This document shows, one piece after another, positions 7,156 through 38,062 of a stretch of 64,000 bases of DNA. The notes under the pieces were generated by a model. The model worked only from the letters and a program-made list of their open reading frames with translations, made no database searches and was not told the origin of the DNA. How positions within the stretch are numbered: position 1 is the first letter of the stretch; every line of letters begins with the position of its first letter. The stretch comes from SAR202 cluster bacterium bin22 (GTDB taxonomy: Bacteria; Chloroflexota; Dehalococcoidia; Lucifugimonadales; UBA3495), in the NCBI GenBank assembly GCA_002238505.1, contig MPMM01000001.1, positions 1,037,811-1,101,810 of the forward strand, given 5' to 3'. Both the position numbers and the translations under genes were made by a program.

Positions 7156-8136
7156 ATGAAAATCGCAGTAATGGGCACCGGCGGTGTTGGAGGCTATTTT
7201 GGTGGCTTGCTGGCCCGGGCCGGCAACGAAGTGACTTTCGTTGCCCGCGGCCCCCACCTGGAAGCGATCAGGGCCAACGGCCTCCGGGTAGAGAGCGCCA
7301 ACGATGGCGATTTCACGGTTCACTGCAATGCAGTCGAGGATACCAGCGGAGTCGAAACCCAGGACCTGGTTCTGTTCGCCGTCAAGATGTACCACAATTC
7401 CGATGCCATTGATTCCGTCAAACCTCTGCTGGGGCCGGATTCCCTGGTGTTGACCCTGCAGAATGGAATAGATAACAGTCAGCAACTGGTGGACGCTTTC
7501 GGCCGGGGACGAGTCTTGATCGGTTCGTGTTACCTGGAGGGTCGAATTCGGGAGCCGGGCGTTGTTACCCAGGGCGGGCCGGGAAGGGCCTCATTCGGCG
7601 AGCTGGAACCGGGAATTACGGAGCGGTGCCAGAAACTGCTCGCGGTTTTTCAGGAAGCCAACTGGCGGGTCGAGCTTGAAGAGAATATGCCTGGCATGCT
7701 TTGGAAGAAATTCTCCTACCTGGCTGGGTCAGCCGCCGTGGGCGCGGCTACCCGAACCCTTTTTGGCGAAATGCGGTCCATCCCCGAAACCAGGGCCATC
7801 ATCCAGGGCGCCATTGAGGAAATCCTGGAAGTGGGACGGGCTTCGGGAGCGCCGATAATGGACGACTCCCTGGATTGGTGCCTTACTTCCCTGGATAACT
7901 TCCCGGCAACGGGAATGTCCTCGCTGGGCAAGGATTTCCTGGAAGGACGTCCGGTAGAATTGGATGGCCTTACGGGCGCCGCCGTTCGCATGGGGCGCGA
8001 ATACGGCGTTCCAACACCCATCAACGACACTTTGTATGGCATCCTTAAGCCCTGGGCCCTGAGAATTGAAGAGAAACTAAACCAACCGATACCCGAGAAC
8101 AAGGTTCTTGGCCCGAAGGAAAACTATATCGACTGA
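7156..8136 (+). CDS. 2-dehydropantoate 2-reductase (ApbA/PanE) family oxidoreductase
   Basis: 326 aa with the N-terminal Rossmann motif MKIAVMGTGGVGGYFGGLLARAGNEVTFVARG and a C-terminal ketopantoate-reductase-like domain. Confidence 0.8.
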   Translation: MKIAVMGTGGVGGYFGGLLARAGNEVTFVARGPHLEAIRANGLRVESANDGDFTVHCNAVEDTSGVETQDLVLFAVKMYHNSDAIDSVKPLLGPDSLVLTLQNGIDNSQQLVDAFGRGRVLIGSCYLEGRIREPGVVTQGGPGRASFGELEPGITERCQKLLAVFQEANWRVELEENMPGMLWKKFSYLAGSAAVGAATRTLFGEMRSIPETRAIIQGAIEEILEVGRASGAPIMDDSLDWCLTSLDNFPATGMSSLGKDFLEGRPVELDGLTGAAVRMGREYGVPTPINDTLYGILKPWALRIEEKLNQPIPENKVLGPKENYID

Positions 8137-22200: not shown

Positions 22201-22751
22201 TCCTGGAGAGCTTCTATTTTGGTCGCCAGTCTCAGCGCGAGGGGTTGTGCTTGTCCGATTACGCCCGTCCCGCCGGATCAGGTCCGCCCGACTACGTCGC
22301 CATGTTCACGACAACTGTGGGACCGGCGGTGCGCGCCCTGTCCGACGAAATGCGGGAAAACGGCGAATTCCTTAACTCTCATATCCTGCAGGTTCTGGCC
22401 TTGGAGTCAGCAGAGGCCTTTGCGGAACTGCTGCATAAGCAGATACGCCAGATGTGGGGCATTGGAGACCCTGCTGGCCTCACATTCCAGGATTTGTTCC
22501 GCACCCAATACCATGGACGCCGCTTTTCCTTTGGTTATCCGGCCTGCCCTAGGTTGGAAGACCAGGAACAACTTTTCCGCCTGCTGGACGTGACGTCAAA
22601 TATCGGAGTGGAACTGACGGAAGGTTTCATGATGGATCCGGAGGGATCAGTTTCCGCCCTGGTTTTCCACCATCCGGAGGCCAGGTATTTCAACCTGAGC
22701 GAACAGGACATTGACCGGCTGGAAGCGGAAGTTGAGGCCAAAGGCTTATAA
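19236..22751 (+). CDS. metH: Cobalamin-dependent methionine synthase
   Basis: 1171 aa with all four modules: Hcy-binding (RILVVDGAMGT, GGCCGT), pterin-binding, B12-binding (GDVHDIGKN, LSGLL) and the AdoMet activation domain (RFSFGYPACP). Confidence 0.97.
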   Translation: MHNSDRINQLKSLLGHRILVVDGAMGTSIQARDLGPEDFGGVDYEGCNEYLVLTRPDVIADIHEDFLDAGADILETNTFGATSVVLAEYDLAHEARKINLVAAELARKVADQLSTPKRPRFVAGSMGPTTKTISVTGGITFDELSEAYCEQALGLVEGGADLLLLETSQDTINVKAGLIGIDQAFAELGYEIPVAVQGTIEPMGTLLAGQDAEAFYTSLAHRDLLWIGFNCATGPDFMTDHIRTLSGLSRFPVACLPNAGLPDEDGKYNETPEMLSAAIGRFIQSGWLNVIGGCCGTVPDHIRLLAERADGASPRTPVQLSESRVSGIEALVVDEDTRPAIVGERTNVLGSRRFRRLISQGKFEEAAEVGRRQVRNGAHVLDVCLQDPDRDEMADVIEFLELVTKKVKSPIMIDSTDAAVIKESLKRLQGKSIINSVNLEDGEARFQAVAPLARAYGSALVVGCIDDDKLQAQAITRERKLEIALRSHQLLTGKYGIPEEDLIFDPLVFPAGTGDENYVGSAAETIEGVRLIKEALPNTKTVLGISNVSFGLPPAGREVFNSVFLYHCVQAGLDMAIVNSEMMQRYTSIPEEERILSEDLIWNRGDDPVAAFAAHFRDKAPKSTTEERRNLPLDERLALAIIEGTKEGLAEDLTEALQGRAPLEVINGPLMAGMDEVGRQFNANQLIVAEVLQSAEAMKFAVAHLEPHMERTDSASKGKVILATVKGDVHDIGKNLVDIILSNNGYQVINLGIKVPPQDLIDACHQHNPDIVGLSGLLVKSAQMMVETVRDFRQAGVEPPILVGGAALSNRFTRLRIAPEYAGLVAYAQDAMSGLALANTIQDADERQKLVSEIEAETDELLSAAQTRERSEGAGGAADVAPAQVSHTDNIPNPPDLRLHVISDYDLSEIFPYINPQMLYVRHLGYKGRFAEALEREESDALELRDQVRKVEDIMLAHPGIRASAVFKFFPCHSDGQTLQIYAPDGETVLESFYFGRQSQREGLCLSDYARPAGSGPPDYVAMFTTTVGPAVRALSDEMRENGEFLNSHILQVLALESAEAFAELLHKQIRQMWGIGDPAGLTFQDLFRTQYHGRRFSFGYPACPRLEDQEQLFRLLDVTSNIGVELTEGFMMDPEGSVSALVFHHPEARYFNLSEQDIDRLEAEVEAKGL

Positions 22752-22789
22752 TAGTAAGCAGGTAACCCGAATGGTTCGACAAGTGCAAC

Positions 22790-22820
22790 GGCCCCGGGTA
22801 AATCCGGGGCCCTTTTCTTT
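22790..22820 (+). terminator. Intrinsic terminator after metH
   Basis: GGCCCCGG-GTAAAT-CCGGGGCC followed by CTTTTCTTTG. Confidence 0.7.
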
Positions 22821-22854
22821 GAAACCAATAATGCGACGATAGCAAGGAGAGACC

Positions 22855-24483
22855 ATGCTCCCCATAACTCAGGTTGCAGAACAGTTGGGCATAGCCAGCG
22901 AACACCTCATACCCTTCGGCCACCACAAGGCCAAGATCTCCCTGGACTCCCTCAACGGGAGGGAAGGCCAACAGGGGAAACTGGTAGTCGTGACGGGCAT
23001 TACGCCGACGCCAGCGGGTGAGGGCAAGACCACTACATCGGTGGGCCTGACCCAGGGAATGGGCAAACTGGGCCGCAAAGCGGTGGTCACGCTGAGGGAA
23101 CCCACCCTTGGACCCATCTTCGGCATCAAGGGCGGGGGCACCGGCGGTGGAAAGGCCCGAGTAATTCCCGAGGATGAAATCAACATTCACTTCACCGGCG
23201 ATGCGCATGCGGTGGCGTCTGCCCACAACCTGCTGGCGGCGCTGGTGGACAACGCAGTGTTCCGGGGTCAGATTCCGGGTTTTCAACCAACCGGCATACA
23301 GTGGTCCCGGGTTACGGATGCTTCAGACCGCTCCTTGCGGAACATAATTGCCGGTGTGGGCGGAAGCAACAACAGCCCCCTGCGCGAGACCCGATTCGAC
23401 ATAGTGTCGGCATCTGAAATCATGGCGATACTGGCCCTGGCCGCAGACCCTGGCGATCTCCGAGCCCGCTTGTCCAGGATTGTTGTAGGCTTTACCGACT
23501 CAGGCGAGCCCGTTTCCGTGGGAGACCTGGGAGTTGTCGGCGCGCTGATGACCCTGCTCCGCCACACGACCATGCCCAACATGGTCCAAACCCTGGAAGG
23601 CCAGCCTTCACTGATTCACGCCGGACCTTTCGGAAACATCGCGCACGGCTGCAGTTCCATCATAGGCGACAAGGTAGCGCTGGCTTACTCCGACTACGTA
23701 ATCACTGAGGCCGGCTTTGGCTCAGACCTGGGTTTCGAAAAATTCATGCACATCAAGACCAGGCAGAGCGGCCTGCAGCCCAACTCCGCAGTGCTGGTAG
23801 CCTCGGTAAGGGCCCTGAAGTGGCACGGTGGAGCTAACCGACGTGACCTGGCTACTCCTAACCCTGAGGCAGTGACCGCCGGCGGGCCCAATCTGGCCCA
23901 CCACATTGGCATCGTAAAGGGCTTCGGGCTGCCCTGTGTGGTGGCTATCAATCGCTTCGGTACTGACAGCCCCGAAGAGCTGGAAGCCGTCAGAGCCATC
24001 GCCATGGACGCGGGAGCCGACGCGGCGGTGGAGGCCGACGGCTTTGCCCAGGGCGGTGACGGGATGACCGACCTGGCCGATGCGGTGGTAAGAGCCTCGG
24101 AAGGGCAACCCGACGTGACCTACGCTTATCAGCTGGACGCGCCGGTTGAGGAAAAGGTACTTTCCCTGGCCCGCCAGGTCTACCACGCGGACAATGTCAG
24201 CTGGAGCGTTGAAGCGCGTCGGAGTCTTCGGCGGTTTGAGGCGCAGGGCTGGGGAAACCTGCCCATTTGCATGGCCAAGACCCACCTTTCCACATCACAC
24301 GATCCCACACTGCGGGGGAGTCCTTCCGGGTATGCATTCCCCATCGCCGACATTCGGGCCTCGGTAGGCGCCGGGTTCCTCTACGCGCTGGCCGGCCGCA
24401 TTGAGACCCTTCCCGGTCTTCCCACCCGTCCACTTGCCATGGAAATGGATGTGAATGCCGATGGCGAAGTTGTTGGACTTTAA
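22855..24483 (+). CDS. fhs: Formate-tetrahydrofolate ligase
   Basis: 542 aa with GITPTPAGEGKTTTSVGL, EPTLGPIFGIKGGGTGGG and a C-terminal ...MAKTHLSTSHDP. Confidence 0.97.
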   Translation: MLPITQVAEQLGIASEHLIPFGHHKAKISLDSLNGREGQQGKLVVVTGITPTPAGEGKTTTSVGLTQGMGKLGRKAVVTLREPTLGPIFGIKGGGTGGGKARVIPEDEINIHFTGDAHAVASAHNLLAALVDNAVFRGQIPGFQPTGIQWSRVTDASDRSLRNIIAGVGGSNNSPLRETRFDIVSASEIMAILALAADPGDLRARLSRIVVGFTDSGEPVSVGDLGVVGALMTLLRHTTMPNMVQTLEGQPSLIHAGPFGNIAHGCSSIIGDKVALAYSDYVITEAGFGSDLGFEKFMHIKTRQSGLQPNSAVLVASVRALKWHGGANRRDLATPNPEAVTAGGPNLAHHIGIVKGFGLPCVVAINRFGTDSPEELEAVRAIAMDAGADAAVEADGFAQGGDGMTDLADAVVRASEGQPDVTYAYQLDAPVEEKVLSLARQVYHADNVSWSVEARRSLRRFEAQGWGNLPICMAKTHLSTSHDPTLRGSPSGYAFPIADIRASVGAGFLYALAGRIETLPGLPTRPLAMEMDVNADGEVVGL

Positions 24484-30139: not shown

Positions 30140-31342
30140 ATGCCCGGACTTCTCGAAGGCGTCAAAGTCATCGATTTCACCCATTACTTTGCTGGCCCTT
30201 ACTGTACCAAGCTGCTGGCCACCCTGGGCGCAGAAGTCATCAAGATCGAACGCCCCGGCAGCGGTGACCCCATCCGCGCGATTCCTCCCTTCGCCAGCCA
30301 GCGTCAACCTGGCGAAAGCGGAGCTTGGTTCCTTTATCTGAACACCTCCAAGAAGAGCGTTACCCTGGACCTCAAGACTGAAAAGGGCCGGGACCTGGCG
30401 CTTAAGCTGGTTGCAGAAGCGGACATTGTGGTGGAGAACTTCGCGCCCGGAGTAATGGGGCGGCTGGGACTGGATTACGAGGCGCTGAGCGGTGTTAATC
30501 CGGCCCTGGTGATGACTTCCATTTCCAATTACGGACAGACAGGACCCTACCGGGACTGGAAGGCTGATGAAATCAACCTCTATGCCACCGGGGGCCTGAT
30601 GAACATTACGGGCGAACCCGAGGAACCGCCACTGAAGGAGGGAGCCCCCCTGTCCCAGCTTGGCGCAGGTCAGAACGCCTTTGTCGCCACCATGACCGCG
30701 CTCTTCCATGCAGAGGACACGGAAGAAGGGCAACACATTGACCTGGCCATCGCTGAATACGCCACCAATGTGCTGGAGAACGCACTGATGCAGTACAGCT
30801 ACTCGGGCGTGGAGTTCACCCGGGTAGGCAACCGGGGATACGGCCGGGCCGCCTGGGGCATCTACCCCTGCCAGGACGGCTTCGTTGGCATAATTGCAGG
30901 ACCGGACCAGAATTGGCCCGAAGTATCCAACATAATGGACAGTGAAGAACTGGCGGACCCCCGGTTCGCTTCACGCCAGGGACGCCTGCTGAATGCAGAT
31001 GAAGTGGATGCATTGATGCTGCCCTGGCTGCTGGAGCACGACAAGGTGGACATTTTCAAAGCCGGGCAAGACCATGGCCTGGGCTTTTCCTTCGTGGCCG
31101 GCATGCAGGACATCCTGGAAATGGAACAACTGGTGGCCCGTGACTACTTTGTTGAACTGGACCACCCCATAGCCGGAAACTACCGGTACCCCGGACCTCC
31201 CATAAGCCCGGACTCCGGGAAGTTTGAAGCCTGGGTTTACCGGCGGGCCCCGCTGCTGGCTGAGCATAACCTGGCGGTGCTGGGCGACCTGGGTTACGAC
31301 AGCCAGGGAGTGGAACAACTTTTTGCCGAAGGAGTCATCTAG
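30140..31342 (+). CDS. Family III CoA-transferase (CaiB/BaiF)
   Basis: 400 aa with GVKVIDFTHYFAGPYCTKLLATLGAEVIKIERP. AGGAGA RBS. Confidence 0.9.
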   Translation: MPGLLEGVKVIDFTHYFAGPYCTKLLATLGAEVIKIERPGSGDPIRAIPPFASQRQPGESGAWFLYLNTSKKSVTLDLKTEKGRDLALKLVAEADIVVENFAPGVMGRLGLDYEALSGVNPALVMTSISNYGQTGPYRDWKADEINLYATGGLMNITGEPEEPPLKEGAPLSQLGAGQNAFVATMTALFHAEDTEEGQHIDLAIAEYATNVLENALMQYSYSGVEFTRVGNRGYGRAAWGIYPCQDGFVGIIAGPDQNWPEVSNIMDSEELADPRFASRQGRLLNADEVDALMLPWLLEHDKVDIFKAGQDHGLGFSFVAGMQDILEMEQLVARDYFVELDHPIAGNYRYPGPPISPDSGKFEAWVYRRAPLLAEHNLAVLGDLGYDSQGVEQLFAEGVI

Positions 31343-32617
31343 TTGAGCGCGGCACAACCCCTGAAGAACTTTCGCATACTGGACCTGTCGCGAATCTGGG
31401 CGGGGCCCTACTGCACCAAGCTCTTGGCAGACATGGGCGCCGAGGTCATCAAAATGGAGTCGCTGCGGGTCTATGACTCGCACCGGGGCCCAATTACCCC
31501 GGCGCCCGGAATTGCGGCGTACCCCGATTCGGACCCCGGGGAGGAAGCCTGGAACCGCAATGGATGGTTCAACTGCCTCCACATGAGCAAATATGGCATT
31601 ACCCTGGAACTGACCGAAGAGAAGGGAAGAAGGGTTTTCGAGGAACTCGTTTCAATCAGCGACGTAGTGGTGGAGAACTTCCGCCAGGGCAGCTTGTCCC
31701 GGCTGGGCTATGATTACGAGACCTTGCGCCAGATTCGGCCGGACCTGATTTATGCCTCGATGCCCGCCTTCGGCAACAGCGGACCGTGGCAGAATTACGT
31801 CGCTTACGGCATCGGGCAGGAGCAGCTTTCGGGCATGGCCCATATGACCGGGTATGCAAATGACGGGCCAATGAAATCTGGCATCAATCACGGCGACCCC
31901 ATTACCGGGTCCCATGCTGCCGGAGTTCTGCTGGCCGCGCTGCGTTACCGTCGCCGCACTGGCAAGGGAATGTTTGTGGACGTTTCTCAGCAGGAATCGG
32001 CGGTGGCGCTGATTGGCGGCGAGGTCGTAGCCTACCAGATCAGCGGCGAAGAACCGGAACGCATGGGCAATCACTCACCCTGGTTCGCCCCCCAGAACGC
32101 TTATCCCTGCGCGGGGGAAGACCGGTGGGTAACCATTGGCGTCACCAATGACACCCAGTGGCGCAGCCTGGCGGAAGCCATTGGGCAGCCGGAACTGGCC
32201 GATGACCCCAGGTTTGCTACGAATCAGGACCGACTGCAGCACCGGCGGGAGCTGGACCAGATCCTTGGCGCCTGGGCAGCGGACAAGGACATGTGGGATG
32301 CGACCCACCAACTGCAGGAGAAGAACGTCCCCGCCGGGCCTGTTTTGCGAGGGCCCGACCTGCTGGATAATCCCCATTACACCGACCGGGGCACTTTCAA
32401 CTATGTGGACCACCCCCGGACGGGACCCAAGTGGTACCAGGGGTTTGCTTGGCGAATGTCGAAGACTCCCGGGCAAGTGCACTGGCCGTCGCCCACGTTG
32501 GGCCAGCACAACCGCCAGATTTACCGTGAGCTACTGGGAATCAGAGACGAGAGCATAGACGACCTGGAGTCTGGCGGCGTCATCGGTACGAAGCCCACCG
32601 GGTCGCGGATTATTTAG
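31343..32617 (+). CDS. Family III CoA-transferase (CaiB/BaiF), second copy
   Basis: 424 aa with FRILDLSRIWAGPYCTKLLADMGAEVIKMES. The TTG start directly abuts the preceding stop, with an AAGGAG RBS inside the upstream gene. Confidence 0.9.
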   Translation: MSAAQPLKNFRILDLSRIWAGPYCTKLLADMGAEVIKMESLRVYDSHRGPITPAPGIAAYPDSDPGEEAWNRNGWFNCLHMSKYGITLELTEEKGRRVFEELVSISDVVVENFRQGSLSRLGYDYETLRQIRPDLIYASMPAFGNSGPWQNYVAYGIGQEQLSGMAHMTGYANDGPMKSGINHGDPITGSHAAGVLLAALRYRRRTGKGMFVDVSQQESAVALIGGEVVAYQISGEEPERMGNHSPWFAPQNAYPCAGEDRWVTIGVTNDTQWRSLAEAIGQPELADDPRFATNQDRLQHRRELDQILGAWAADKDMWDATHQLQEKNVPAGPVLRGPDLLDNPHYTDRGTFNYVDHPRTGPKWYQGFAWRMSKTPGQVHWPSPTLGQHNRQIYRELLGIRDESIDDLESGGVIGTKPTGSRII

Positions 32618-32706
32618 TTAAATCTGGAAGGGAGACGGCAGGGGCTGTTAAGGCCACCCCCATGAACTGCGCCTCGCCGTCCTCAGCAACTAAGGAGGAA
32701 ACTGTC

Positions 32707-33480
32707 TTGACCACCCAGACCGAACCCGAAGCAATTTACGAGATCAAGGAAGGCATTGCCTATATCACCATGAATCGCCCTGAGAAGCTGAACGCGATTG
32801 ACCCCAATATGCGTCAGTTGCTGTGGGAGTCCTTTCAGGACGTGAAGAATAACCCAGAAGTGCGCTGCGCCATCGTAACGGGGCGAGGTCGCGCTTTCTC
32901 GACCGGTCATGACCTGGTAGCAATGGCCAACGACCAGGCCAACGAGGGCGTGACCACCGGCGACTTGTACGTAGAGCAGTCCAAGATATACAAGCCCATC
33001 ATTTCCGCCATTAACGGCATATGCCTGGCCCAGGGCTGCGGCATTGCGCTGGGCAGCGACATCCGCATAGCCTCGACGGAAGCCAGGTTTGGCTGGCCCC
33101 AGGCGAAGCGCGGCATTTCCTCGGTCAGCGGGCCGGCCCTGCTGTCCCAGGTGGTGCCGAGGAACATCGCCTTTGAGTTCCTGTTTACCGGGGAGTTCGT
33201 GAATGCGCAGCGGGCACTGGACCTGATGCTGGTCAACTACGTGGTCGAGCCCGATGAGGTGATGCCCAGGGCCGAGGAGATGGCCCGGATGATTATCGCC
33301 AACGCGCCGCTTTCCCTGGCTGCCATCAAGGAGGCGTCCATCAAGGGATCGGAAATGGGAATGCAGGAAAGGGTGGATTTCGCCCAGCAGAAAAGGAACG
33401 AAATTCTGGAAACCGAGGACGCCCAGGAAGGCGTGCGGGCCTTCGCCGAGAAGCGGGCCCCGGTCTGGAAGGGGCGATAA
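32707..33480 (+). CDS. Enoyl-CoA hydratase/isomerase family protein
   Basis: Contains IAYITMNRPEKLNA, GRGRAFSTGHDL, GICLAQGCGIALGSDIRIAS and EGVRAFAEKRAPVWKGR. I chose the TTG at 32707, 7 nt after AAGGAGG. The ORF-track ATG at 32662 has no RBS. Confidence 0.85.
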   Translation: MTTQTEPEAIYEIKEGIAYITMNRPEKLNAIDPNMRQLLWESFQDVKNNPEVRCAIVTGRGRAFSTGHDLVAMANDQANEGVTTGDLYVEQSKIYKPIISAINGICLAQGCGIALGSDIRIASTEARFGWPQAKRGISSVSGPALLSQVVPRNIAFEFLFTGEFVNAQRALDLMLVNYVVEPDEVMPRAEEMARMIIANAPLSLAAIKEASIKGSEMGMQERVDFAQQKRNEILETEDAQEGVRAFAEKRAPVWKGR

Positions 33481-33563: not shown

Positions 33564-35123
33564 TTACTGGGAGCGGAGAGCCCTTCCCGCCTTGGCTCCG
33601 GTATGCACGCCGTTGTCAATGACGACTCGGCCATTAACGATGACGTAATCTATCCCTTCCGGATATTGTTTGGGGTCCTCAAAGGTGGCTTTGGCTTCCA
33701 CCCGTTCGGGGTCGAATACCACCAGGTCAGCCTTCATGCCGTCGCGAATGATGCCCCTATCTTTGAGGCCTAATCGCTGCGCCGGGTATGAGGTCATTTT
33801 CCGGACACCCTCCTCCAGGGGGAACAAGCCCTCTTCCCGAACAAACTGTCCAAGGACGTAGGGGAAAGTGCCGTAGGATCGGGGATTAGGATAGTCCCCG
33901 GTCAGCAAGCCGTCAGACCCCACCATCTGGGCAGGATGTTTGGCTATACTGCGGATGTTCTCGGGATTTCCGGTGCGGGCAACAAAAGCTACTTCAAGGT
34001 TTTCCTCAATGAGCAGGTCGCAGATGGCGTCCACCATGCGTTTGCCCTGGTGCTCGGCCAGGTCAACCAGGGAACGCCCCTCCCACTCCTTATTCTTCTG
34101 CGAGCCAATGTGGCTGAAAATGTAGTGGTCAAGACTGAGGCCCCACTGGGGTTCGACCGTATCGCCGATCTCATCACGAATGCTTTGCTCGTGAATGCGT
34201 CGGAAGAGGAGGCTGGGCCCCCCGGCGTGGACCCAGTAGGGCAGCAGGGAATGCAAAACCGTACTGGCTGCCGGGTAGGGATACTGGTCGAAGGTTACGT
34301 CGATGCCCGCGTCCCTGCCCTCGTCCACCAAGGACACCATTCGACGGCCAAGGCCTTCCACCGGGCTGTGGTAATGGGAAATGTGGACCGGAACCCCGCT
34401 CTGTTGCCCGACGTTCATCGCCTCCCGGAAGGGGTCCAGAAGCCGGTCGCCCAGGCTGTAGCGGGCATGAGTCATATAGAATCCACCGTAGTCCTTAATG
34501 GCCTCGCATACGGCCACCAGTTCATCGGTGTCGCTGTAGGCGCCGGGGGGATAGGTAAGCCCGGTGGAAAAACCGAAGGCGCCGTCCCGCATGCCCTGCC
34601 GGGCCAGTTCCTGCATCCGGGTGGTTTCGTCATCGGTAGGCAATCGGTCGGCCCAACCCATAGCCTCCACGCGAATAGCAGCGTGGGGTACGAAATAGAC
34701 CACGTTGCAAGAAATCCGGTTGTCCAGCAGATCAAGGAACTCGCTGACCCGGCCCCACCGAACGTCCTGTGGTGGCGTTCCGTTAATTGCAGCAAGGTAA
34801 GTCAGCAGCTCTTCAAGGTGAGCCGGGGAGGTGGGAGCGTAGGACAGCCCGTCCATTCCCAAGGCATCGGTGGTAACGCCCTGCCTGAGCTTGGCTTCAT
34901 TGGCCGGGTCAGTTAGAAGCATCAGGTCGGAATGCGAATGCATATCTATGAACCCGGGACAGATAATGTTGCCATCGGCGTTGATAACACGGTCTGCCGC
35001 CACCGATGAGGTATCGCCCCGCAAGACAGTGACAGTATCACCGTCTATTCCAACGCTTCCTCGGAACCAGGTCTGCCCGGTACCGTCGATAATGCGGCCC
35101 CGGTCAATCAGCAAATCAAACAT
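33564..35123 (-). CDS. N-acyl-D-amino-acid deacylase (D-aminoacylase, amidohydrolase superfamily)
   Basis: 519 aa. MFDLLIDRGRIIDGTGQTWFRGSVGIDGDTV...GNIICPGFIDMHSHSD is the canonical D-aminoacylase N-terminus. C-terminal ADLVVFDPERV. Confidence 0.9.
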   Translation of the reverse strand: MFDLLIDRGRIIDGTGQTWFRGSVGIDGDTVTVLRGDTSSVAADRVINADGNIICPGFIDMHSHSDLMLLTDPANEAKLRQGVTTDALGMDGLSYAPTSPAHLEELLTYLAAINGTPPQDVRWGRVSEFLDLLDNRISCNVVYFVPHAAIRVEAMGWADRLPTDDETTRMQELARQGMRDGAFGFSTGLTYPPGAYSDTDELVAVCEAIKDYGGFYMTHARYSLGDRLLDPFREAMNVGQQSGVPVHISHYHSPVEGLGRRMVSLVDEGRDAGIDVTFDQYPYPAASTVLHSLLPYWVHAGGPSLLFRRIHEQSIRDEIGDTVEPQWGLSLDHYIFSHIGSQKNKEWEGRSLVDLAEHQGKRMVDAICDLLIEENLEVAFVARTGNPENIRSIAKHPAQMVGSDGLLTGDYPNPRSYGTFPYVLGQFVREEGLFPLEEGVRKMTSYPAQRLGLKDRGIIRDGMKADLVVFDPERVEAKATFEDPKQYPEGIDYVIVNGRVVIDNGVHTGAKAGRALRSQ

Positions 35124-35273
35124 TAGCTTGCCTCACAAACAAAGTTGTGGAAAAATGCCGTATTTCGCAATGATTCTAACCACTCTGTGACGAGATGGTG
35201 CAGTTGCTTGATTATCATTGGCAAGACGGGCATAAAGCACAACATATACTGTAGATTATAGCTGGATAATAAT

Positions 35274-35302
35274 TTGACAATGGAAGTGGATGAAAGTATT
35301 AT
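35274..35302 (+). promoter_or_regulatory. Near-consensus sigma-70 promoter ~415 nt upstream of panD
   Basis: TTGACA-N17-TATTAT, within an AT-richer 590-nt intergenic region. Confidence 0.6.
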
Positions 35303-35417
35303 GCGTCTGCACCGCACCCTAATCAAAAGGGGGTTTCCAAGGATGCGTGTAAGTTTAGCACGACAGGGTAAGATCATCCCTTACTCTACGGAGCCCGAAG
35401 GGCAGAAGAACTTTTGT

Positions 35418-35455
35418 GCCGGGTCCCGGTACGATATTAATTCCCGGCGTTTTTT
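35418..35455 (+). terminator. Candidate intrinsic terminator / expression platform
   Basis: GCCGGG ... CCCGGC followed by GTTTTTT. The 5-prime arm can alternatively form GUGCCGG-GUC-CCGGUAC (35416-35432). Confidence 0.45.
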
Positions 35456-35716
35456 CACCTACTTCGGAAATACAGCCTCTCTACCGAGCCGCCAACTCCC
35501 CTGCGAGCATTAGCTCCTTCCACGCTGAACAACTTAGAGTCTTTGTTGGGCAAGTGTGGCTGATACTTAGTCGCTAGAACTACAGCGCAAACGTATCCAA
35601 AAGGTGTGGAACGACTCTACCAGGTAGCTCTTTGAGCCCCGGCTGTAGAGACTCGTGCGCTTTCTTATTCGAGAGATCAATCGGAATCAAACGGACAATA
35701 CAAGGAGGAGAAATAC

Positions 35717-36085
35717 ATGCGACAACTCATGAGGTCCAAGATTCACCGGGCGACAGTCACCAACTGCGACGAGAGCTATATTGGAAGCATCGTTATCGAC
35801 CAGAATCTGATGGACAAGTCGGACATCTGGGAGTACGAGAAGGTACTGGTTTGTGACGTAAACAACGGCGCCCGGTTTGAGACCTACGCGATCTCCGGCG
35901 AGCGGGGCAGCGGAATCATATCTGTCCAGGGAGCTGCAGCCAAGCTTACGAACCCCGGCAACAAGGTAATCATCATGGCCTTTGAGGTTACCGACGAACC
36001 GGTCCGGCCCAAGGCGATCCTGGTCACCGATGACAACGTTTTCGACTATTACCTTACGGAGATCGAAAATGCAATTGCAGTTTAG
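35717..36085 (+). CDS. panD: Aspartate 1-decarboxylase (pyruvoyl-dependent)
   Basis: 122 aa. [24 protein letters not shown] carries the G-S self-cleavage site, plus [38 protein letters not shown]. Confidence 0.95.
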
Positions 36086-36890
36086 CGAGTCAGAAACCGA
36101 ACAATATTACGACCATGAAGATGCCGTTTACCGGGCTCTGTGGGACAAGGACGGCAGCGTTCACTGGGGTTTGTTCGAAGATGGCGCCAACATGACCTTC
36201 CTGGAAGCCGGCGCCAACCTGAACAAGGTAATGGCGGAGCGGGGGCAGCTGGCCGCCGATTCCAACGTCATTGACGTGGGTTGCGGCAGCGGCACTACCG
36301 CGATTGCCCTTTGCAAGGCCGTTGGCTGCCAGATAACCGGAGTGGATTTGAGCGGCGTTCGCATTGCCAACGCCATCGACTCCCTCGAAGAGCACCCGGC
36401 AGAAGTACGGGAGAAGGTCAGCTTCAAGAAGGGTTCCGCGGCGGACCTGCCCATTGAGAAAGAGACCTTTGACCGGGCCTGGAGCCAGGCCACCATTTAC
36501 CACGTACCGGACAAGGTAAAGGTTCTTGAGGAAGTTTACCGGGTGTTGAAGCACGGGGGGATTTTCGTTTTCGACGATCTCATCAAGCCCCAGCCCAATA
36601 TCAGCGAGAAGGCCGTCAAGTTCGTATACGAGCGACTGCTGTTCGACACGGACTTTTCCTTCGAGTCTTACCAGGTAGCGTTGAAAGACGCAGGATTCGA
36701 GGTACTGGAAGCCGAGGATATTTCCCGGCACCTGAAGACCAGCTACCTTATGCTGAGCGACGCTGCTTCCAAGGGCAACGAAGAGCACCTGGAACGGTTT
36801 GCGTTCCTGGCCGAGGCCTACAAGGAGACCGCAGCGGCGGTGGACAATAAGGAACTGGGTTGGGCAATGTTCGTTTGCCGCAAGAAATAG
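36069..36890 (+). CDS. SAM-dependent N-methyltransferase of the sarcosine/dimethylglycine (betaine-forming) type
   Basis: ATG at 36069 (GGAG RBS) overlaps the panD 3-prime end by 17 nt. [57 protein letters not shown] and the C-terminal [12 protein letters not shown] are collinear with my recollection of cyanobacterial/halophile dimethylglycine N-methyltransferases. Confidence 0.8.
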
Positions 36891-36933
36891 GTTCGCGCCC
36901 ATCGCTTGTGGCAGGCGCAGTTCGAGGTAAGCA

Positions 36934-37560
36934 ATGACTCAAAATGATCGCGTTCAGTGGGTGTATTCCTCTCAGAATGAACAGGAACTGGAGGAACGCT
37001 ACGACCAGTGGGCCGAAGAATACGACGCCGACCTGGAGAGTGACTACGGCTGGATCTCTCCTCAGCGTACTTCCGAATACCTGGCCAAGCACGTAGGAAC
37101 GGACGCCTCCATACTGGATGCCGGGGCAGGAACCGGGCTGGTAGGCGAATGCCTTCACAAGCTGGGTTTCAGCAACATGACGGCAATGGACTTGTCGCTG
37201 GGCATGCTGGAAGTCGCCCGCAGGAAGAACATCTACCAGGGGCTGGACCAGATGACCATGGGCGAAGAGTTGGGCTATGCGACTGGCCAGTTCGATGCTT
37301 CAATCATCGTGGGTGTATTCACCCAGGGCCACGCTCCGGCCAGTTCCATTGATGAACTGGTCCGGGTAGTAAAGGCAGGCGGCCATATCGTCTTCAGCCT
37401 CAGAACTGACACTTACCTGGAAAACGGCTTCAAAGACAAGCTGGACTCTCTCGAGTCTGCCGGGTTGTGGAAACTGGTGGAGGTATCGGACGCCTACCAC
37501 CCTCTGCCAAAAGGGGAGCCTGAAGTTATGCACCAAGTGTGGGTCTTTCAGGTCAGTTAG
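36934..37560 (+). CDS. Class I SAM-dependent methyltransferase (Methyltransf_11/25-like)
   Basis: 208 aa with YDQWAEEYDADL, ILDAGAGTGLVG and VKAGGHIVFSL. Lies 44 nt after the previous methyltransferase. GAGGTA RBS. Confidence 0.8.
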   Translation: MTQNDRVQWVYSSQNEQELEERYDQWAEEYDADLESDYGWISPQRTSEYLAKHVGTDASILDAGAGTGLVGECLHKLGFSNMTAMDLSLGMLEVARRKNIYQGLDQMTMGEELGYATGQFDASIIVGVFTQGHAPASSIDELVRVVKAGGHIVFSLRTDTYLENGFKDKLDSLESAGLWKLVEVSDAYHPLPKGEPEVMHQVWVFQVS

Positions 37561-37592
37561 CCCGTTACGGACAGACTCCTGCTGAAACATTT

Positions 37593-37635
37593 GAGGCCTC
37601 ACCTTATCCCCTTCACGGGAACCGGGTGAGGCCTC
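37593..37635. terminator. 11-bp perfect hairpin between convergent genes
   Basis: GAGGCCTCACC-N21-GGTGAGGCCTC. There is no strong U-tract, so its function as a terminator is uncertain. Confidence 0.4.
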
Positions 37636-37657
37636 GATTCAGTCAATGGAACTGCTG

Positions 37658-38062
37658 CTATTCCCTGGTTTCCATGGGCAATCCCCTGTACCTGACCTCA
37701 TCGACACAAATGGGACACCGTTGCTCAACCGCGTGCCCCACTGCGGGCCAAAAGTCCTCCGACGTTAGTCCGCACAGGTAAATGGGCGCCACTTCCTCTA
37801 TCCCCAGACTTTCAACGTAATGGACCTCGCCTCTCCTCTGGGGGTTTGGCCACCACCAGGGCGTTAACTGCCGGGCCAGATTGTCGATGTGGTCCTTGTG
37901 GTCGTCTTGCCAGCCTTCTTCCGGCAATTCGACAACCCAAGCCCGTCCTTCCGCGCCCGACTGTCTCCGGGCGTTCAAGCGACCTTCGCGGATGTAGCGA
38001 CGGATGACGTCCTGCGACACATTCAAGCGCCGCGACGCCTCCTGAATAGTAACTTCTTCCAA
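37658..38062 (-). CDS. Helix-turn-helix (excisionase/MerR-like HTH_17) protein with an uncharacterised Trp/Cys-containing C-terminal domain
   Basis: 134 aa. N-terminal TIQEASRRLNVSQDVIRRYIREGRL. The C-terminus has WWWPNP and CPIC. TTG start with a GGAGGGG RBS. Lies 62 nt downstream of ilvB. Confidence 0.55.
   Translation of the reverse strand: MEEVTIQEASRRLNVSQDVIRRYIREGRLNARRQSGAEGRAWVVELPEEGWQDDHKDHIDNLARQLTPWWWPNPQRRGEVHYVESLGIEEVAPIYLCGLTSEDFWPAVGHAVEQRCPICVDEVRYRGLPMETRE

What the first reader, a model, noticed from the sequence alone, without database searches (positions are those of the whole stretch)
35717..37560. panD translationally coupled to a betaine-type N-methyltransferase plus a second methyltransferase: candidate beta-alanine betaine pathway
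Aspartate 1-decarboxylase makes beta-alanine and normally sits with panB/panC. Here its 3-prime end overlaps by 17 nt the start of a methyltransferase. That enzyme is collinear along its whole length with sarcosine/dimethylglycine N-methyltransferases, the enzymes that build glycine betaine by stepwise N-methylation (YYD...W....H.G.F, the SAM motif [22 protein letters not shown]-terminal GW..F). A second class-I SAM methyltransferase follows 44 nt later, and the unit ends at a hairpin. No panB or panC is present. The simplest reading is Asp to beta-alanine to N-methylated beta-alanine(s), up to beta-alanine betaine. That osmolyte has a known biosynthesis, by a single N-methyltransferase, in Plumbaginaceae plants. 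As far as I know it has no described bacterial gene cluster. The two-methyltransferase layout mirrors the two-enzyme glycine betaine route of halophiles.
Basis: inference. Interest (0 to 1): 0.8.

Follow-up and report, generated by a model that had tools for sequence, protein, structure and literature searches.

The report
Candidate bacterial beta-alanine betaine operon

Summary
panD (35717-36085) overlaps methyltransferase MT1 (36069-36890) by 17 nt. MT2 (36934-37560) follows after 43 nt, then a strong hairpin (37591-37637).

- panD-MT1-MT2 is complete in 74 of 80 species-level Dehalococcoidia/SAR202 genome loci, down to 54% MT1 identity, although the flanking genes change completely.
- panD and MT1 overlap in 68 of 75 loci.
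- MT1 and MT2 occur fused in one ~465-aa protein in marine cyanobacteria. There the fusion sits beside panD and gamma-butyrobetaine-hydroxylase-like dioxygenases.
- One protein fuses PanD, a glycine/sarcosine-N-methyltransferase-like domain and an MT1-like domain.

MT1's best curated family is sarcosine/dimethylglycine N-methyltransferase, but at 111 bits against a cut-off of 550. It is equally close to the natural-product methyltransferases MitM, AtmM and RebM, so it is a relative, not a member. MT2's closest solved relative is human METTL27, whose substrate is unknown.

A new part: a short ORF (35343-35513) precedes the operon in 89 loci. Only its tail is conserved, ...R-x-R-H/Y-x-L-P-C-E-P followed by a TAG stop. 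That pattern suggests a ribosome-arrest leader peptide.

I found no described bacterial beta-alanine betaine pathway in the library searched.

The parts
35274..35302 (+). sigma-70-like promoter candidate (TTGACA, 17 nt, TATTAT; 11 of 12 matches), about 40 nt upstream of the leader ORF start
   Evidence: This is a consensus match only. Three such sites were found in the region against 1.7 expected by chance, so its function is inferred.
35343..35513 (+). Conserved short leader ORF, 56 aa: MRVSLARQ...NTASLPSRQLPCEH*. Relatives end in ...LPCEP, then TAG. It has an AAGGGGG Shine-Dalgarno-like site upstream.
   Evidence: It is present in 89 loci, upstream and on the same strand. The tail consensus is I-R-S-R-Q-R-H-x-L-P-C-E-P-stop. 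Among 60 distinct tails, Pro-4 is kept in 60, Cys-3 in 59, Glu-2 in 54 and Pro-1 in 57. The stop is TAG in 74 of 76. Changes in the last five codons fall mostly at third positions. Indels in the alignment are multiples of 3. The nucleotide motif hits the + strand 76 times and the - strand 0 times in 1.78 Mb.
35514..35716 (+). 203-nt spacer between the leader ORF stop and the panD start, ending in a strong Shine-Dalgarno site (AAGGAGGAG) for panD
   Evidence: Spacer length is 146-376 nt across loci. Its sequence is poorly conserved. RNAalifold found no conserved structure, and Rfam gave no hit.
35717..36085 (+). panD, pyruvoyl-dependent aspartate 1-decarboxylase (makes beta-alanine)
   Evidence: TIGR00223 scores 119.8 bits, above its cut-off of 106. 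Lys9, His11, Tyr22, the Gly24-Ser25 self-cleavage site, Arg54, Thr57 and Tyr58 are all present. Asn72 is replaced by Gln in every PanD of this operon among the genome loci.
36069..36890 (+). MT1, a class I SAM methyltransferase of the SDMT/PEAMT/RebM/MitM fold group. Its start overlaps the panD end by 17 nt.
   Evidence: The best NCBIfam hit is NF041675 (SDMT) at 111 bits, cut-off 550. The best PDB hits are MitM (100-113 bits), AtmM, RebM, Galdieria SDMT (TM-score 0.74) and plant PEAMTs. The orthologue group is sharply bounded: relatives sharing 54% identity or more score above 320 bits, while the next relatives score 190-290 bits.
36934..37560 (+). MT2, a small class I SAM methyltransferase of the METTL27/WBSCR27 type (COG4976-like)
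   Evidence: The best solved relative is human METTL27 (7qcb), 90 bits, E = 1.3e-24. No curated family passes its cut-off. MT2 is fused C-terminally to MT1-like domains in ~465-aa proteins.
37591..37637 (.). GC-rich 14-bp hairpin between the convergent MT2 gene and the HTH gene; probable bidirectional terminator, without a U-tract
   Evidence: fold energy -44.5 kcal/mol, z = -5.3. The terminator scan did not call it because it has no T-run.

Best explanation
This is a self-contained operon for de novo synthesis of beta-alanine betaine (3-trimethylammoniopropionate). It is most plausibly a compatible solute in marine and sponge-associated SAR202-type Chloroflexota.

Proposed steps:
1. PanD decarboxylates L-aspartate to beta-alanine. 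The enzyme identity is shown by sequence.
2. MT1 and MT2 then transfer three methyl groups from SAM to the amino group, through N-methyl- and N,N-dimethyl-beta-alanine. This step is inferred.

The division of labour is a weak inference by analogy. In the two-enzyme glycine betaine route, and in the triple fusion PanD + GSMT-like + MT1-like, a first enzyme does the early methylations. Here MT2, the METTL27-type enzyme, occupies that position. The SDMT-like MT1 would do the later steps.

Decarboxylation must come first. The pyruvoyl mechanism needs a free primary alpha-amino group to form a Schiff base; this is established knowledge of PanD.

The operon appears to be transcribed from a promoter upstream of a 56-aa leader ORF. 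The invariant ...LPCEP-UAG end of that ORF suggests that a ribosome pausing or arresting at the stop codon sets expression of panD-MT1-MT2. The signal is unknown and this part is speculative.
For: 1. PanD is canonical, with all catalytic and self-processing residues.

2. Translational coupling is conserved. There is a 17-nt overlap here, and overlaps of 17, 20, 8 or 4 nt in 68 of 75 loci.

3. The panD-MT1-MT2 triad is complete in 74 of 80 species-representative genomes, down to 54% MT1 identity.
- The flanks differ completely. Sponge-type genomes have amidohydrolase, HTH and acetolactate synthase genes. Pelagic genomes have DnaE and an alpha/beta-hydrolase gene.
- The gene order varies (panD-MT2-MT1 in L030, L032 and L038), yet the set is kept.

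4. Fusion proteins link the parts.
- MT1-MT2 fusions of ~465 aa occur in many filamentous cyanobacteria, in Mycobacterium simiae and in a proteobacterial MAG.
- PanD-MT1 fusions exist: P0107 and P0291.
- P0280 joins PanD, a domain whose best matches are glycine/sarcosine N-methyltransferases, and an MT1-like domain.

5. In the cyanobacterial loci L090, L093 and L094, the MT1-MT2 fusion is followed directly by panD and then by gamma-butyrobetaine-hydroxylase-like dioxygenases.
- In L091 and L092 the fusion sits beside such a dioxygenase plus a carnitine acyltransferase.
- Those enzymes act on trimethylammonium compounds.

6. MT1's best curated family is SDMT. Iterative amine N-methyltransferases (PEAMT, SDMT) are among its closest solved relatives.

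7. Beta-alanine betaine receives SAM-derived methyl groups in North Pacific microbial communities. The study names no producing organisms (PMC9321204).
Against: - There is no biochemical or metabolite evidence for these proteins.
- MT1's fold group also holds O-, C- and S-methyltransferases at similar distance: AtmM, RebM, TleD, GPP methyltransferase and DsyG. Sequence alone therefore does not fix N-methylation.
- MT1 fails the SDMT family cut-off (111 against 550 bits).
- MT2-type genes with 46-64% identity occur alone in many metagenome contigs, with no panD or MT1 within 7 kb. They interleave with operon-linked MT2s in a neighbour-joining tree. MT2 may therefore have a broader or different role.
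- No betaine transporter or osmoregulator is linked.
- I could not test whether these genomes carry another panD for CoA synthesis, or panB and panC elsewhere.
- The PanD-MT1 fusions could be frameshift errors at an overlapping junction.
- The final product could stop at the mono- or dimethyl stage.
Confidence: 0.6

Rival explanations
1. The methyltransferase pair makes a different or incompletely methylated product. This could be N-methyl- or N,N-dimethyl-beta-alanine only, or the betaine of another amino acid, with PanD supplying only part of the substrate pool.
For: - MT1-MT2 fusions also occur without panD, next to a gamma-butyrobetaine-hydroxylase-like enzyme and a carnitine acyltransferase in L091 and L092. 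That fits a gamma-butyrobetaine/carnitine-type product.
- Some SAR202 loci have the leader ORF plus MT1 without panD: L063, L078, L079 and L106.
- Standalone MT2 genes exist.
Against: - In the window's family, panD is coupled to MT1 by an overlap in 68 of 75 loci, and it is fused to MT1-type domains in three proteins.
- Two methyltransferases are more than a single methylation needs.
- Betaine-specific dioxygenases follow the panD-linked fusion in cyanobacteria.
Confidence: 0.2
2. panD is simply the housekeeping gene for pantothenate/CoA synthesis. The two methyltransferases serve unrelated functions (source annotations call them 'UbiE' or 'TPR repeat methyltransferase') and are only neighbours.
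For: - Source annotations call MT1 'ubiquinone/menaquinone biosynthesis C-methylase UbiE'.
- PanD is fully canonical.
- I could not show that a second panD exists in these genomes.
Against: - UbiE/MenG models score only 55-65 bits against cut-offs of 158-420.
- Synteny survives complete turnover of the flanks and a change of gene order.
- The stop/start overlap is conserved.
- Domain fusions link all three parts.
- The bin RHO2_bin_36 carries two panD-MT1 loci, L002 and L075.
- No panB or panC lies in the 64-kb window.
Confidence: 0.07
3. It is a sulfonium (DMSP-type) pathway. MT1 would be a DsyG/DSYE-like S-methyltransferase and the PanD-like protein the decarboxylase.
For: - MT1 is homologous to DsyG/DSYE and shares the EQYD...H.G, WS...H..DK and GW..F motifs.
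- Wang et al. 2024 considered a Porphyra methyltransferase-PanD fusion a good candidate for that role (PMC11306096).
Against: - Identity to the functional DsyG/DSYE enzymes is only 23-27%. That paper required at least 40% identity and 70% coverage to count a homologue.
- The same paper found that the Porphyra methyltransferase-PanD fusion had neither MTHB S-methyltransferase nor DMSHB decarboxylase activity.
- DMSHB has no amino group, so it cannot form the Schiff base that pyruvoyl PanD needs (established mechanism).
- PanD here passes the equivalog cut-off for aspartate 1-decarboxylase.
Confidence: 0.03
4. The short ORF encodes a precursor or scaffold peptide that the methyltransferases, and perhaps the PanD homologue, modify. 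On this reading the unit is a small RiPP-like system, not an osmolyte pathway.
For: - The short ORF co-occurs with MT1 in 89 loci and has an invariant Cys-containing C-terminal motif.
- MT1 has weak similarity to peptide methyltransferases: LahSB at 32-46 bits. The cyanobacterial MT1-MT2 fusion P0402 weakly matches the daptide methyltransferase model.
Against: - No protease, transporter, cyclase or recognition-domain gene is linked.
- PanD is a canonical free-aspartate enzyme.
- The cyanobacterial panD + MT1-MT2 clusters lack any such ORF.
- Conservation confined to the last 12 or so residues, plus a fixed TAG stop, fits a nascent-chain regulatory peptide better than a core peptide.
Confidence: 0.05

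Closest known systems
Two-enzyme glycine betaine pathway of halophiles: GSMT + SDMT (Halorhodospira, Aphanothece, Actinopolyspora, Methanohalophilus)
   Same: - Stepwise SAM-dependent N-methylation of a small amino acid to its betaine by two class I methyltransferases encoded side by side, sometimes fused.
- MT1's best curated family match is SDMT (NF041675), and its model superposes on Galdieria SDMT at TM-score 0.74.
- A relative (P0280) carries a GSMT-like domain in front of the MT1-like domain.
   Different: - The inferred substrate is beta-alanine, made in situ by a co-translated PanD.
- MT1 scores 111 bits against a cut-off of 550, so it is not an SDMT orthologue.
- The partner is a METTL27-type enzyme, not a GSMT/GNMT-type one.
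- The operon carries a conserved leader peptide.
Beta-alanine N-methyltransferase (BANMT) of Limonium latifolium (Plumbaginaceae)
   Same: The same proposed chemistry and product: beta-alanine -> N-methyl -> N,N-dimethyl -> beta-alanine betaine, with SAM as donor (pathway cited in PMC9321204, and PMC13577585).
   Different: - In the plant, a single trifunctional enzyme does all three steps. It belongs to the plant O-methyltransferase (COMT-like) family; this is my own knowledge of Raman & Rathinasabapathi 2003, not checked here.
- MT1 scores only 18.4 bits on Pfam Methyltransf_2 (cut-off 22.3).
- Plants make beta-alanine by other routes, not by a pyruvoyl PanD in an operon.
Phosphoethanolamine N-methyltransferases (PEAMT/PMT) of plants, nematodes and Plasmodium
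   Same: Iterative triple N-methylation of a small primary amine to a trimethylammonium product. They share MT1's fold group, scoring 57-91 bits against the MT1 family profile and appearing among the Foldseek hits.
   Different: The substrate carries a phosphate, not a carboxylate. Identity is about 18-22%. The plant enzymes are tandem two-domain proteins.
DsyG/DsyGD/DSYE MTHB S-methyltransferases of DMSP synthesis (Wang et al. 2024, PMC11306096)
   Same: - Homologous methyltransferase domain with shared motifs.
- They make the sulfur analogue of beta-alanine betaine.
- They are found in the same kinds of organisms (filamentous cyanobacteria, marine microbes).
- A DsyG-like domain is fused to a PanD domain in Porphyra.
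   Different: Only 23-27% identical to MT1. They catalyse S-methylation, not N-methylation. Their partner is a ureidoglycolate-lyase-like decarboxylase. The Porphyra methyltransferase-PanD fusion was inactive in DMSP synthesis.
Human METTL27 / WBSCR27 (PDB 7qcb)
   Same: It is the closest solved relative of MT2: 90 bits, E = 1.3e-24, aligned over residues 23-184.
   Different: Its substrate is unknown. RNA and protein targets were sought and not found, and a small molecule is not excluded (PMC9240639). It has no operon context.
Termination-stalling regulatory leader peptides such as TnaC (own knowledge)
   Same: A short upstream ORF on the same strand. Conservation is confined to the C-terminal residues that would lie in the ribosomal exit tunnel. 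The last residue before the stop codon is an invariant Pro, and the stop codon itself is conserved.
   Different: There is no sequence similarity to any known arrest peptide and no experimental evidence. The ligand is unknown, and no conserved downstream RNA switch was found.

Membership tests
Aspartate 1-decarboxylase PanD (TIGR00223 / PF02261) | Score above the curated equivalog cut-off | tested here: met
   119.8 bits against a cut-off of 106. Pfam scores 135 bits against a cut-off of 25.
Aspartate 1-decarboxylase PanD (TIGR00223 / PF02261) | Gly24-Ser25 self-cleavage site that forms the pyruvoyl group, and catalytic residues Lys9, Tyr22, Arg54, Thr57 and Tyr58 | tested here: met
   Alignment to the M. 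tuberculosis and E. coli PanD structures. The 'YIGS' or 'YVGS' site is present in all 74 PanD sequences recovered from the genome loci.
Aspartate 1-decarboxylase PanD (TIGR00223 / PF02261) | Asn72, conserved in the characterised enzymes | tested here: not met
   It is Gln in the window and in every PanD of this operon recovered from the genome loci ('VQGAAA' or 'IQGAAA'). P0280 keeps Asn. The consequence is unknown.
Aspartate 1-decarboxylase PanD (TIGR00223 / PF02261) | Aspartate decarboxylation activity | not testable with these tools
   Needs an enzyme assay.
Sarcosine/dimethylglycine N-methyltransferase SDMT (NCBIfam NF041675) | Score above the curated equivalog cut-off (550 bits) | tested here: not met
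   MT1 scores 111.1 bits, E = 9e-32. This is the best of all NCBIfam families, but the match covers only residues 10-229 of 273.
Sarcosine/dimethylglycine N-methyltransferase SDMT (NCBIfam NF041675) | Same fold and collinear architecture as a solved SDMT | tested here: met
   The AlphaFold model (pLDDT 80) matches Galdieria SDMT 2o57 at TM-score 0.74 over about 280 columns. AtmM, SpnF and MitM match equally well or better.
Sarcosine/dimethylglycine N-methyltransferase SDMT (NCBIfam NF041675) | Genomic partner is a GSMT-type methyltransferase | tested here: not met
   The partner, MT2, is of the METTL27 type. Only the distant fusion P0280 has a GSMT-like domain.
Plant beta-alanine N-methyltransferase (COMT-like O-methyltransferase family, PF00891) | Membership of the Methyltransf_2 family | tested here: not met
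   MT1 scores 18.4 bits against a cut-off of 22.3. MT2 has no hit. The family assignment of BANMT is from my own knowledge.
DsyG/DSYE MTHB S-methyltransferases | At least 40% identity and at least 70% coverage to experimentally confirmed sequences (the criterion used in PMC11306096) | tested here: not met
   MT1 is 22.6-27.4% identical to GsDsyGD, Symploca DsyGD, ZnDsyG and two DSYE proteins.
METTL27/WBSCR27-type methyltransferases (MT2) | Significant full-domain similarity to the solved member | tested here: met
   7qcb scores 90.1 bits, E = 1.3e-24, aligning query residues 23-184 with chain residues 34-201. The next PDB hit scores only 33.8 bits.
Ribosome-arrest / leader peptide regulators | Short ORF upstream of the regulated genes on the same strand, with peptide-level conservation concentrated at the C-terminus | tested here: met
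   Found in 89 loci. The invariant tail is P-C-E-P, and variation falls at third codon positions. The stop is TAG in 74 of 76. The ORF lies 146-376 nt upstream of panD.
Ribosome-arrest / leader peptide regulators | Downstream RNA switch (terminator/antiterminator or a masked ribosome-binding site) or a Rho-dependent region | tested here: inconclusive
   RNAalifold on 11 spacers found only a trivial 4-bp stem with no covariation. Rfam gave no hit. Rho dependence cannot be tested here.
Ribosome-arrest / leader peptide regulators | Ligand-dependent stalling of the ribosome | not testable with these tools
   Needs toeprinting, ribosome profiling or reporter fusions.

The most novel reading that the evidence does not exclude
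The unit is a previously undescribed, widespread bacterial route to beta-alanine betaine. It is controlled by a new class of metabolite- or ion-sensing ribosome-arrest peptide (...R-x-R-H/Y-x-L-P-C-E-P-UAG). Its MT2 component would reveal that the orphan METTL27/WBSCR27 family methylates small amino acids. SAR202 bacteria and certain filamentous cyanobacteria would then be major sources of the beta-alanine betaine seen in ocean and sponge metabolomes. Related clusters with gamma-butyrobetaine-hydroxylase-like enzymes and a carnitine acyltransferase would point to bacterial de novo synthesis of carnitine-like compounds.
Probability: 0.25. Interest if true: 0.9.

Novelty: new variant of a known kind. 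Interest (0 to 1): 0.78.

Why it matters
- **An osmolyte without known microbial genes.** Beta-alanine betaine is the nitrogen analogue of DMSP. It is measured in marine particulate metabolomes and takes up SAM-derived methyl groups in situ (PMC9321204). The only biosynthetic enzyme the papers I read cite for it is the plant one. A gene marker for bacterial production would let its sources be mapped in metagenomes and metatranscriptomes. SAR202 is one of the most abundant deep-ocean bacterial groups and a dominant sponge symbiont.
- **An oxygen-independent route.** The pathway costs three SAM per molecule and needs no oxygen or choline. That bears on nitrogen and methyl budgets and on osmoadaptation in the dark ocean.
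- **A lead for METTL27.** The operon gives the first contextual clue to a substrate class for the METTL27/WBSCR27 family, a human orphan enzyme.
- **A possible new arrest peptide.** The leader peptide, if it is one, would be a rare non-model, bioinformatically tractable example with about 60 natural sequence variants.
- **Ready-made fusion enzymes.** The fused cyanobacterial versions are single-polypeptide candidates for engineering betaine production.

Tried and rejected
- **Rfam.** An E-value-threshold search over 35000-37800 gave only a chance miRNA match on the hairpin. There is no riboswitch.
- **RNA structure in the spacer.** RNAalifold on the region from the leader-ORF end to the panD start in 11 loci found no conserved structure or covariation. 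The upstream conservation I first took for an RNA element turned out to be coding.
- **Fold search.** The MT1 model places it in the RebM/AtmM/MitM/SpnF/SDMT/PEAMT/GPP-methyltransferase fold group. That is not diagnostic of substrate or of the atom methylated.
- **DMSP hypothesis.** MT1 is only 23-27% identical to functional DsyG/DSYE, and a published methyltransferase-PanD fusion was inactive. Rejected.
- **Recurring neighbours.** Clustering neighbour ORFs across the 80 loci found nothing beyond the triad that is conserved across clades: no transporter and no regulator. The same holds for standalone MT2 loci.
- **MT2 tree.** A neighbour-joining tree showed that operon-linked and standalone copies interleave, so MT2 is not an exclusive marker.
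- **Mycobacterium simiae fusion.** The P0440 context look-up was not on record.
- **Literature.** Searches for a bacterial beta-alanine betaine pathway, SAR202 plus panD, the homoserine betaine methyltransferase and the peptide motif found nothing relevant.
- **Not possible here.** I could not look up the organisms of proteins from the representative library (P0280, P0255). I could not build a phylogeny with GSMT, SDMT, BANMT and PEAMT sequences, because those sequences were not retrievable; HMM and PDB scores served as proxies.


Full report
**1. The observation**

The window is DNA of a Dehalococcoidia/SAR202-type Chloroflexota. The closest genomes are sponge-derived MAGs, for example RHO1_bin_4 with 93% MT1 identity and the same gene order.

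- panD runs 35717-36085 and encodes 122 aa. It passes the curated equivalog cut-off for aspartate 1-decarboxylase (119.8 against 106 bits).
- MT1 starts at ATG 36069, the start used by all relatives, and ends at 36890. It overlaps panD by exactly 17 nt.
- MT2 runs 36934-37560, after a 43-nt gap.
- A 14-bp GC-rich hairpin at 37591-37637 follows (z = -5.3 against shuffles). It lies between MT2 and a convergent HTH gene and has no U-tract.
- Pfam scans of 30 further large ORFs of the window found no PanB or PanC. They did find a PanE/ApbA-family reductase at 7156-8136, MetH at 19236-22751 and formate-THF ligase at 22855-24483.

**2. The three enzymes**

*PanD.* It aligns with the M. tuberculosis and E. 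coli enzymes. Lys9, His11, Tyr22, the Gly24-Ser25 self-cleavage site, Arg54, Thr57 and Tyr58 are intact. Asn72 is Gln here and in every PanD of this operon among the genome loci.

*MT1.* It is a class I SAM methyltransferase.
- Its best curated prokaryotic family is sarcosine/dimethylglycine N-methyltransferase (NF041675; 111 bits, E = 9e-32, residues 10-229). The family cut-off is 550 bits.
- Against solved structures it is as close or closer to MitM (100-113 bits), AtmM, RebM and SpnF. Galdieria SDMT and plant PEAMTs follow.
- An AlphaFold model (pLDDT 80) gives the same list by fold.
- Lipid (cyclopropane fatty-acid synthase) methyltransferases score much lower, about 40-50 bits.

So MT1 belongs to the fold group that holds the iterative amine N-methyltransferases. 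That group also holds O-, C- and S-methyltransferases.

*MT2.* It matches only generic methyltransferase models. Its one strong solved relative is human METTL27/WBSCR27 (90 bits). The substrate of that enzyme is unknown despite targeted searches among RNAs and proteins (PMC9240639).

**3. Conservation of the unit**

A scan of one genome per GTDB species returned 218 relatives of MT1. The best 80 are all Dehalococcoidia/Chloroflexota, from sponges, the open ocean (Station ALOHA, Tara, SAR202 bins) and other waters.

- tblastn shows panD in 75 of the 80 loci, MT2 in 76, and the full triad in 74, down to 54% MT1 identity.
- The flanks are kept only in the window's own clade. There they are an amidohydrolase upstream, and HTH and acetolactate synthase genes downstream.
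- In pelagic SAR202 the triad sits between dnaE and an alpha/beta-hydrolase gene. Clustering of all neighbour ORFs found nothing else conserved across clades.
- The panD stop and the MT1 start overlap by 17 nt in 19 loci, by 20 nt in 47, and by 4 or 8 nt in two.
- Three genomes have the order panD-MT2-MT1. One has two MT1 copies in tandem.

A set of genes that stays together through rearrangement and complete turnover of its surroundings is a functional unit.

**4. Fusions and links in other lineages**

An exhaustive HMMER search of 1.84 billion representative proteins found 57 clusters at E <= 1e-30. Several of these, and others just below that score, are informative.

- *MT1-MT2 fusions.* Proteins of about 465 aa have an MT1-like N-terminal half (28-43% identity) and an MT2-like C-terminal half (31-43%). 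A follow-up search shows this fusion family mainly in filamentous marine cyanobacteria: Okeania, Symploca, Moorea, Spirulina, Geitlerinema, Tolypothrix and Rhizonema. It also occurs in Mycobacterium simiae and in a proteobacterial MAG.
- *Context of the fusions.* In Okeania sp. SIO1I7 the fusion gene is followed directly by panD. A gamma-butyrobetaine-hydroxylase-like (GBBH_N + TauD) dioxygenase and a short-chain dehydrogenase come next. Two metagenome contigs repeat the order fusion, panD, GBBH-like (L093, L094). In another 3.0-Mb genome the fusion lies beside a GBBH-like dioxygenase and a carnitine acyltransferase.
- *PanD fusions.* PanD-MT1 fusions exist (P0107, 389 aa; P0291). They could in principle be frameshift artefacts at the overlapping junction.
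- *A triple fusion.* P0280 (674 aa) joins three domains. The first is a PanD that passes the equivalog cut-off. The second is a middle domain whose best NCBIfam and PDB matches are bacterial glycine/sarcosine N-methyltransferase and the archaeal GSMT structure, followed by GNMTs. The third is an MT1-like domain. This layout mirrors the GSMT + SDMT betaine pathway with a beta-alanine generator placed in front.
- *A published parallel.* Wang et al. 2024 described a Porphyra protein that joins a DsyG-like methyltransferase to a PanD domain. It had no DMSP-synthesis activity (PMC11306096).

Together these results tie PanD to methyltransferase pairs of this type in at least three unrelated lineages. 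They also tie the pair's product to enzymes that act on trimethylammonium compounds.

**5. Most likely mechanism**

- Shown by sequence: PanD is an aspartate 1-decarboxylase, so it makes beta-alanine.
- Inferred: MT1 and MT2 methylate the amino group three times with SAM to give beta-alanine betaine.
- Established mechanism: decarboxylation must precede methylation. The pyruvoyl cofactor needs a primary alpha-amino group.
- Weak inference by position: MT2 replaces the GSMT-like domain of P0280 and would do the early methylations. The SDMT-like MT1 would do the late ones.

A compatible-solute role fits the marine and sponge habitat, but no transporter or osmoregulator is linked. I put the whole statement at 0.6.

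The main rival (0.2) is that the product differs or is only partly methylated. Coincidental neighbourhood (0.07), a RiPP-like system (0.05) and a DMSP-type pathway (0.03) are unlikely, for the reasons given under the rivals.

**6.

The 590-nt region upstream of panD is not empty.

- Nucleotide conservation there resolves into a short ORF, 35343-35513. It has an AAGGGGG Shine-Dalgarno-like site. A TTGACA-17-TATTAT promoter match lies about 40 nt further upstream.
- The 20-mer CTCCCCTGCGAGCCTTAGCT, allowing up to 3 mismatches, occurs 76 times in the 1.78 Mb of fetched loci. All hits are on the operon strand. All but the extra copy in L055 and the one in L073 lie 146-376 nt upstream of panD, or 276-355 nt upstream of MT1 where panD is missing. 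There are none on the other strand.
- With a peptide-level search, 89 loci have the ORF.
- The peptides are mostly 32-57 aa and diverge freely except for the tail. Its consensus is I-R-S-R-Q-R-H-x-L-P-C-E-P-stop. Over 60 distinct tails, Pro-4 is kept in 60, Cys-3 in 59, Glu-2 in 54 and Pro-1 in 57. In the window the last residue is His.
- Variation in the last five codons falls mostly at third positions: CTC/CTG/CTT/CTA, CCC/CCT, TGC/TGT, GAG/GAA and CCT/CCA/CCG/CCC. Indels between the conserved blocks are multiples of three. The selection therefore acts on the peptide.
- The stop is TAG in 74 of 76, mostly followed by C.
- The spacer to panD is poorly conserved and has no conserved structure.
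- The cyanobacterial clusters have no such ORF.

Conservation limited to the dozen residues that would fill the ribosomal exit tunnel, a Pro before a fixed stop codon, and a position in front of a biosynthetic operon are the hallmarks of termination-stalling leader peptides such as TnaC (my own knowledge). I therefore propose a regulatory arrest peptide, with modest confidence and an unknown signal.

**7. Comparison with what is known, and novelty**

- The chemistry is that of the plant enzyme BANMT. In layout the operon most resembles the GSMT + SDMT pathway of halophiles.
- Membership tests fail for SDMT (111 against 550 bits), for the plant O-methyltransferase family, and for DsyG/DSYE (23-27% identity).
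- Ten full-text searches found no described native bacterial pathway for beta-alanine betaine. A 2025 review of bacterial osmoprotectants and a September 2026 paper on this compound were among the papers read. The Ascaris paper and Boysen et al. 2022 cite only the plant route. Work in subscription journals could have been missed.
- Boysen et al. 2022 show methyl flow into beta-alanine betaine in North Pacific communities and name no producing organisms.

I rate this a new variant of a known kind. It is a new substrate-supply-plus-methylation operon built from known enzyme superfamilies, with a non-orthologous enzyme pair and a new leader peptide.

**8. Limits**

- Everything beyond enzyme-family assignment is comparative inference.
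- I could not inspect whole genomes for other pan genes.
- MT2-like genes of 46-64% identity occur alone in many contigs and interleave with operon-linked copies in a neighbour-joining tree. MT2 may therefore not be specific to this pathway.
- The MT1 model has a low-confidence segment at residues 74-97. I attempted no active-site analysis.

Noticed in passing
window 35343-35513 (+); the same position in L001-L110: Conserved, unannotated short ORF upstream of panD that ends in ...LPCEP followed by TAG (LPCEH in the window). Only the last 12 or so residues are conserved across 89 loci. It is a candidate ribosome-arrest leader peptide.
   Followed up: yes
L090 8001-15837 (Okeania sp. SIO1I7, JAAHGF010000004); also L093 and L094: A cyanobacterial cluster in the order: MT1-MT2 fusion, panD, gamma-butyrobetaine-hydroxylase-like dioxygenase, short-chain dehydrogenase, a pterin-binding protein, a second TauD-family dioxygenase, a CmcI-type methyltransferase and a second dehydrogenase. 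Pterin biosynthesis genes flank it. This suggests that beta-alanine betaine is modified further there.
   Followed up: partly
L091/L092 5015-9404: An MT1-MT2 fusion lies divergent from a gamma-butyrobetaine-hydroxylase-like dioxygenase, a carnitine O-acyltransferase (PF00755) and a cNMP-binding regulator, in a 3.0-Mb bacterial genome. There is no panD. This may be a bacterial route to a carnitine-like compound.
   Followed up: no
proteins P0280 (674 aa) and P0255 (790 aa): P0280 joins PanD, a GSMT-like domain and an MT1-like domain in one chain. P0255 joins an MT1-like domain, a second methyltransferase domain and a TauD-family dioxygenase. The source organisms are unknown because the library carries no names.
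   Followed up: partly
L114-L152 (metagenome contigs): MT2-type genes with 46-64% identity to the window's MT2 stand alone in varied contexts. No panD or MT1 lies within 7 kb, and there is no recurring neighbour.
   Followed up: partly
window PanD residue 72; all PanDs recovered from L001-L080: Asn72 of characterised PanD enzymes is Gln in every PanD of this operon in SAR202. The PanD domain of the triple fusion P0280 keeps Asn.
   Followed up: partly
L002 and L075 (both from MAG RHO2_bin_36, JAPPJA01): One sponge MAG carries two loci. One is a full triad (92% MT1 identity). The other is a divergent panD-MT1 pair (57%) without MT2. This means either two panD copies per genome or a mixed bin.
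   Followed up: no
window 19236-24483: B12-dependent methionine synthase MetH and formate-tetrahydrofolate ligase lie side by side, 11-16 kb upstream of the operon. These are methyl-cycle genes that would regenerate SAM. The linkage may be coincidental.
   Followed up: no
window 30140-33480; the same in L001-L023 and L087-L089: Two CaiB/BaiF-type family III CoA-transferases and an enoyl-CoA hydratase (CaiD-like family) lie just upstream. They are syntenic only within the sponge-associated clade. Their families are those of carnitine/betaine-CoA metabolism, but such genes are very numerous in SAR202.
   Followed up: no
L085 4832-6613: A GmrSD-type (DUF262/DUF1524) restriction-like gene is inserted between the CoA-transferase and enoyl-CoA hydratase genes in one relative. 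It is absent from the window.
   Followed up: no
window 37658-38062 (-): A small MerR/excisionase-family HTH protein is convergent with MT2 and shares the hairpin. It is conserved next to the triad only in the window's clade and in L074. It is a possible local regulator.
   Followed up: no
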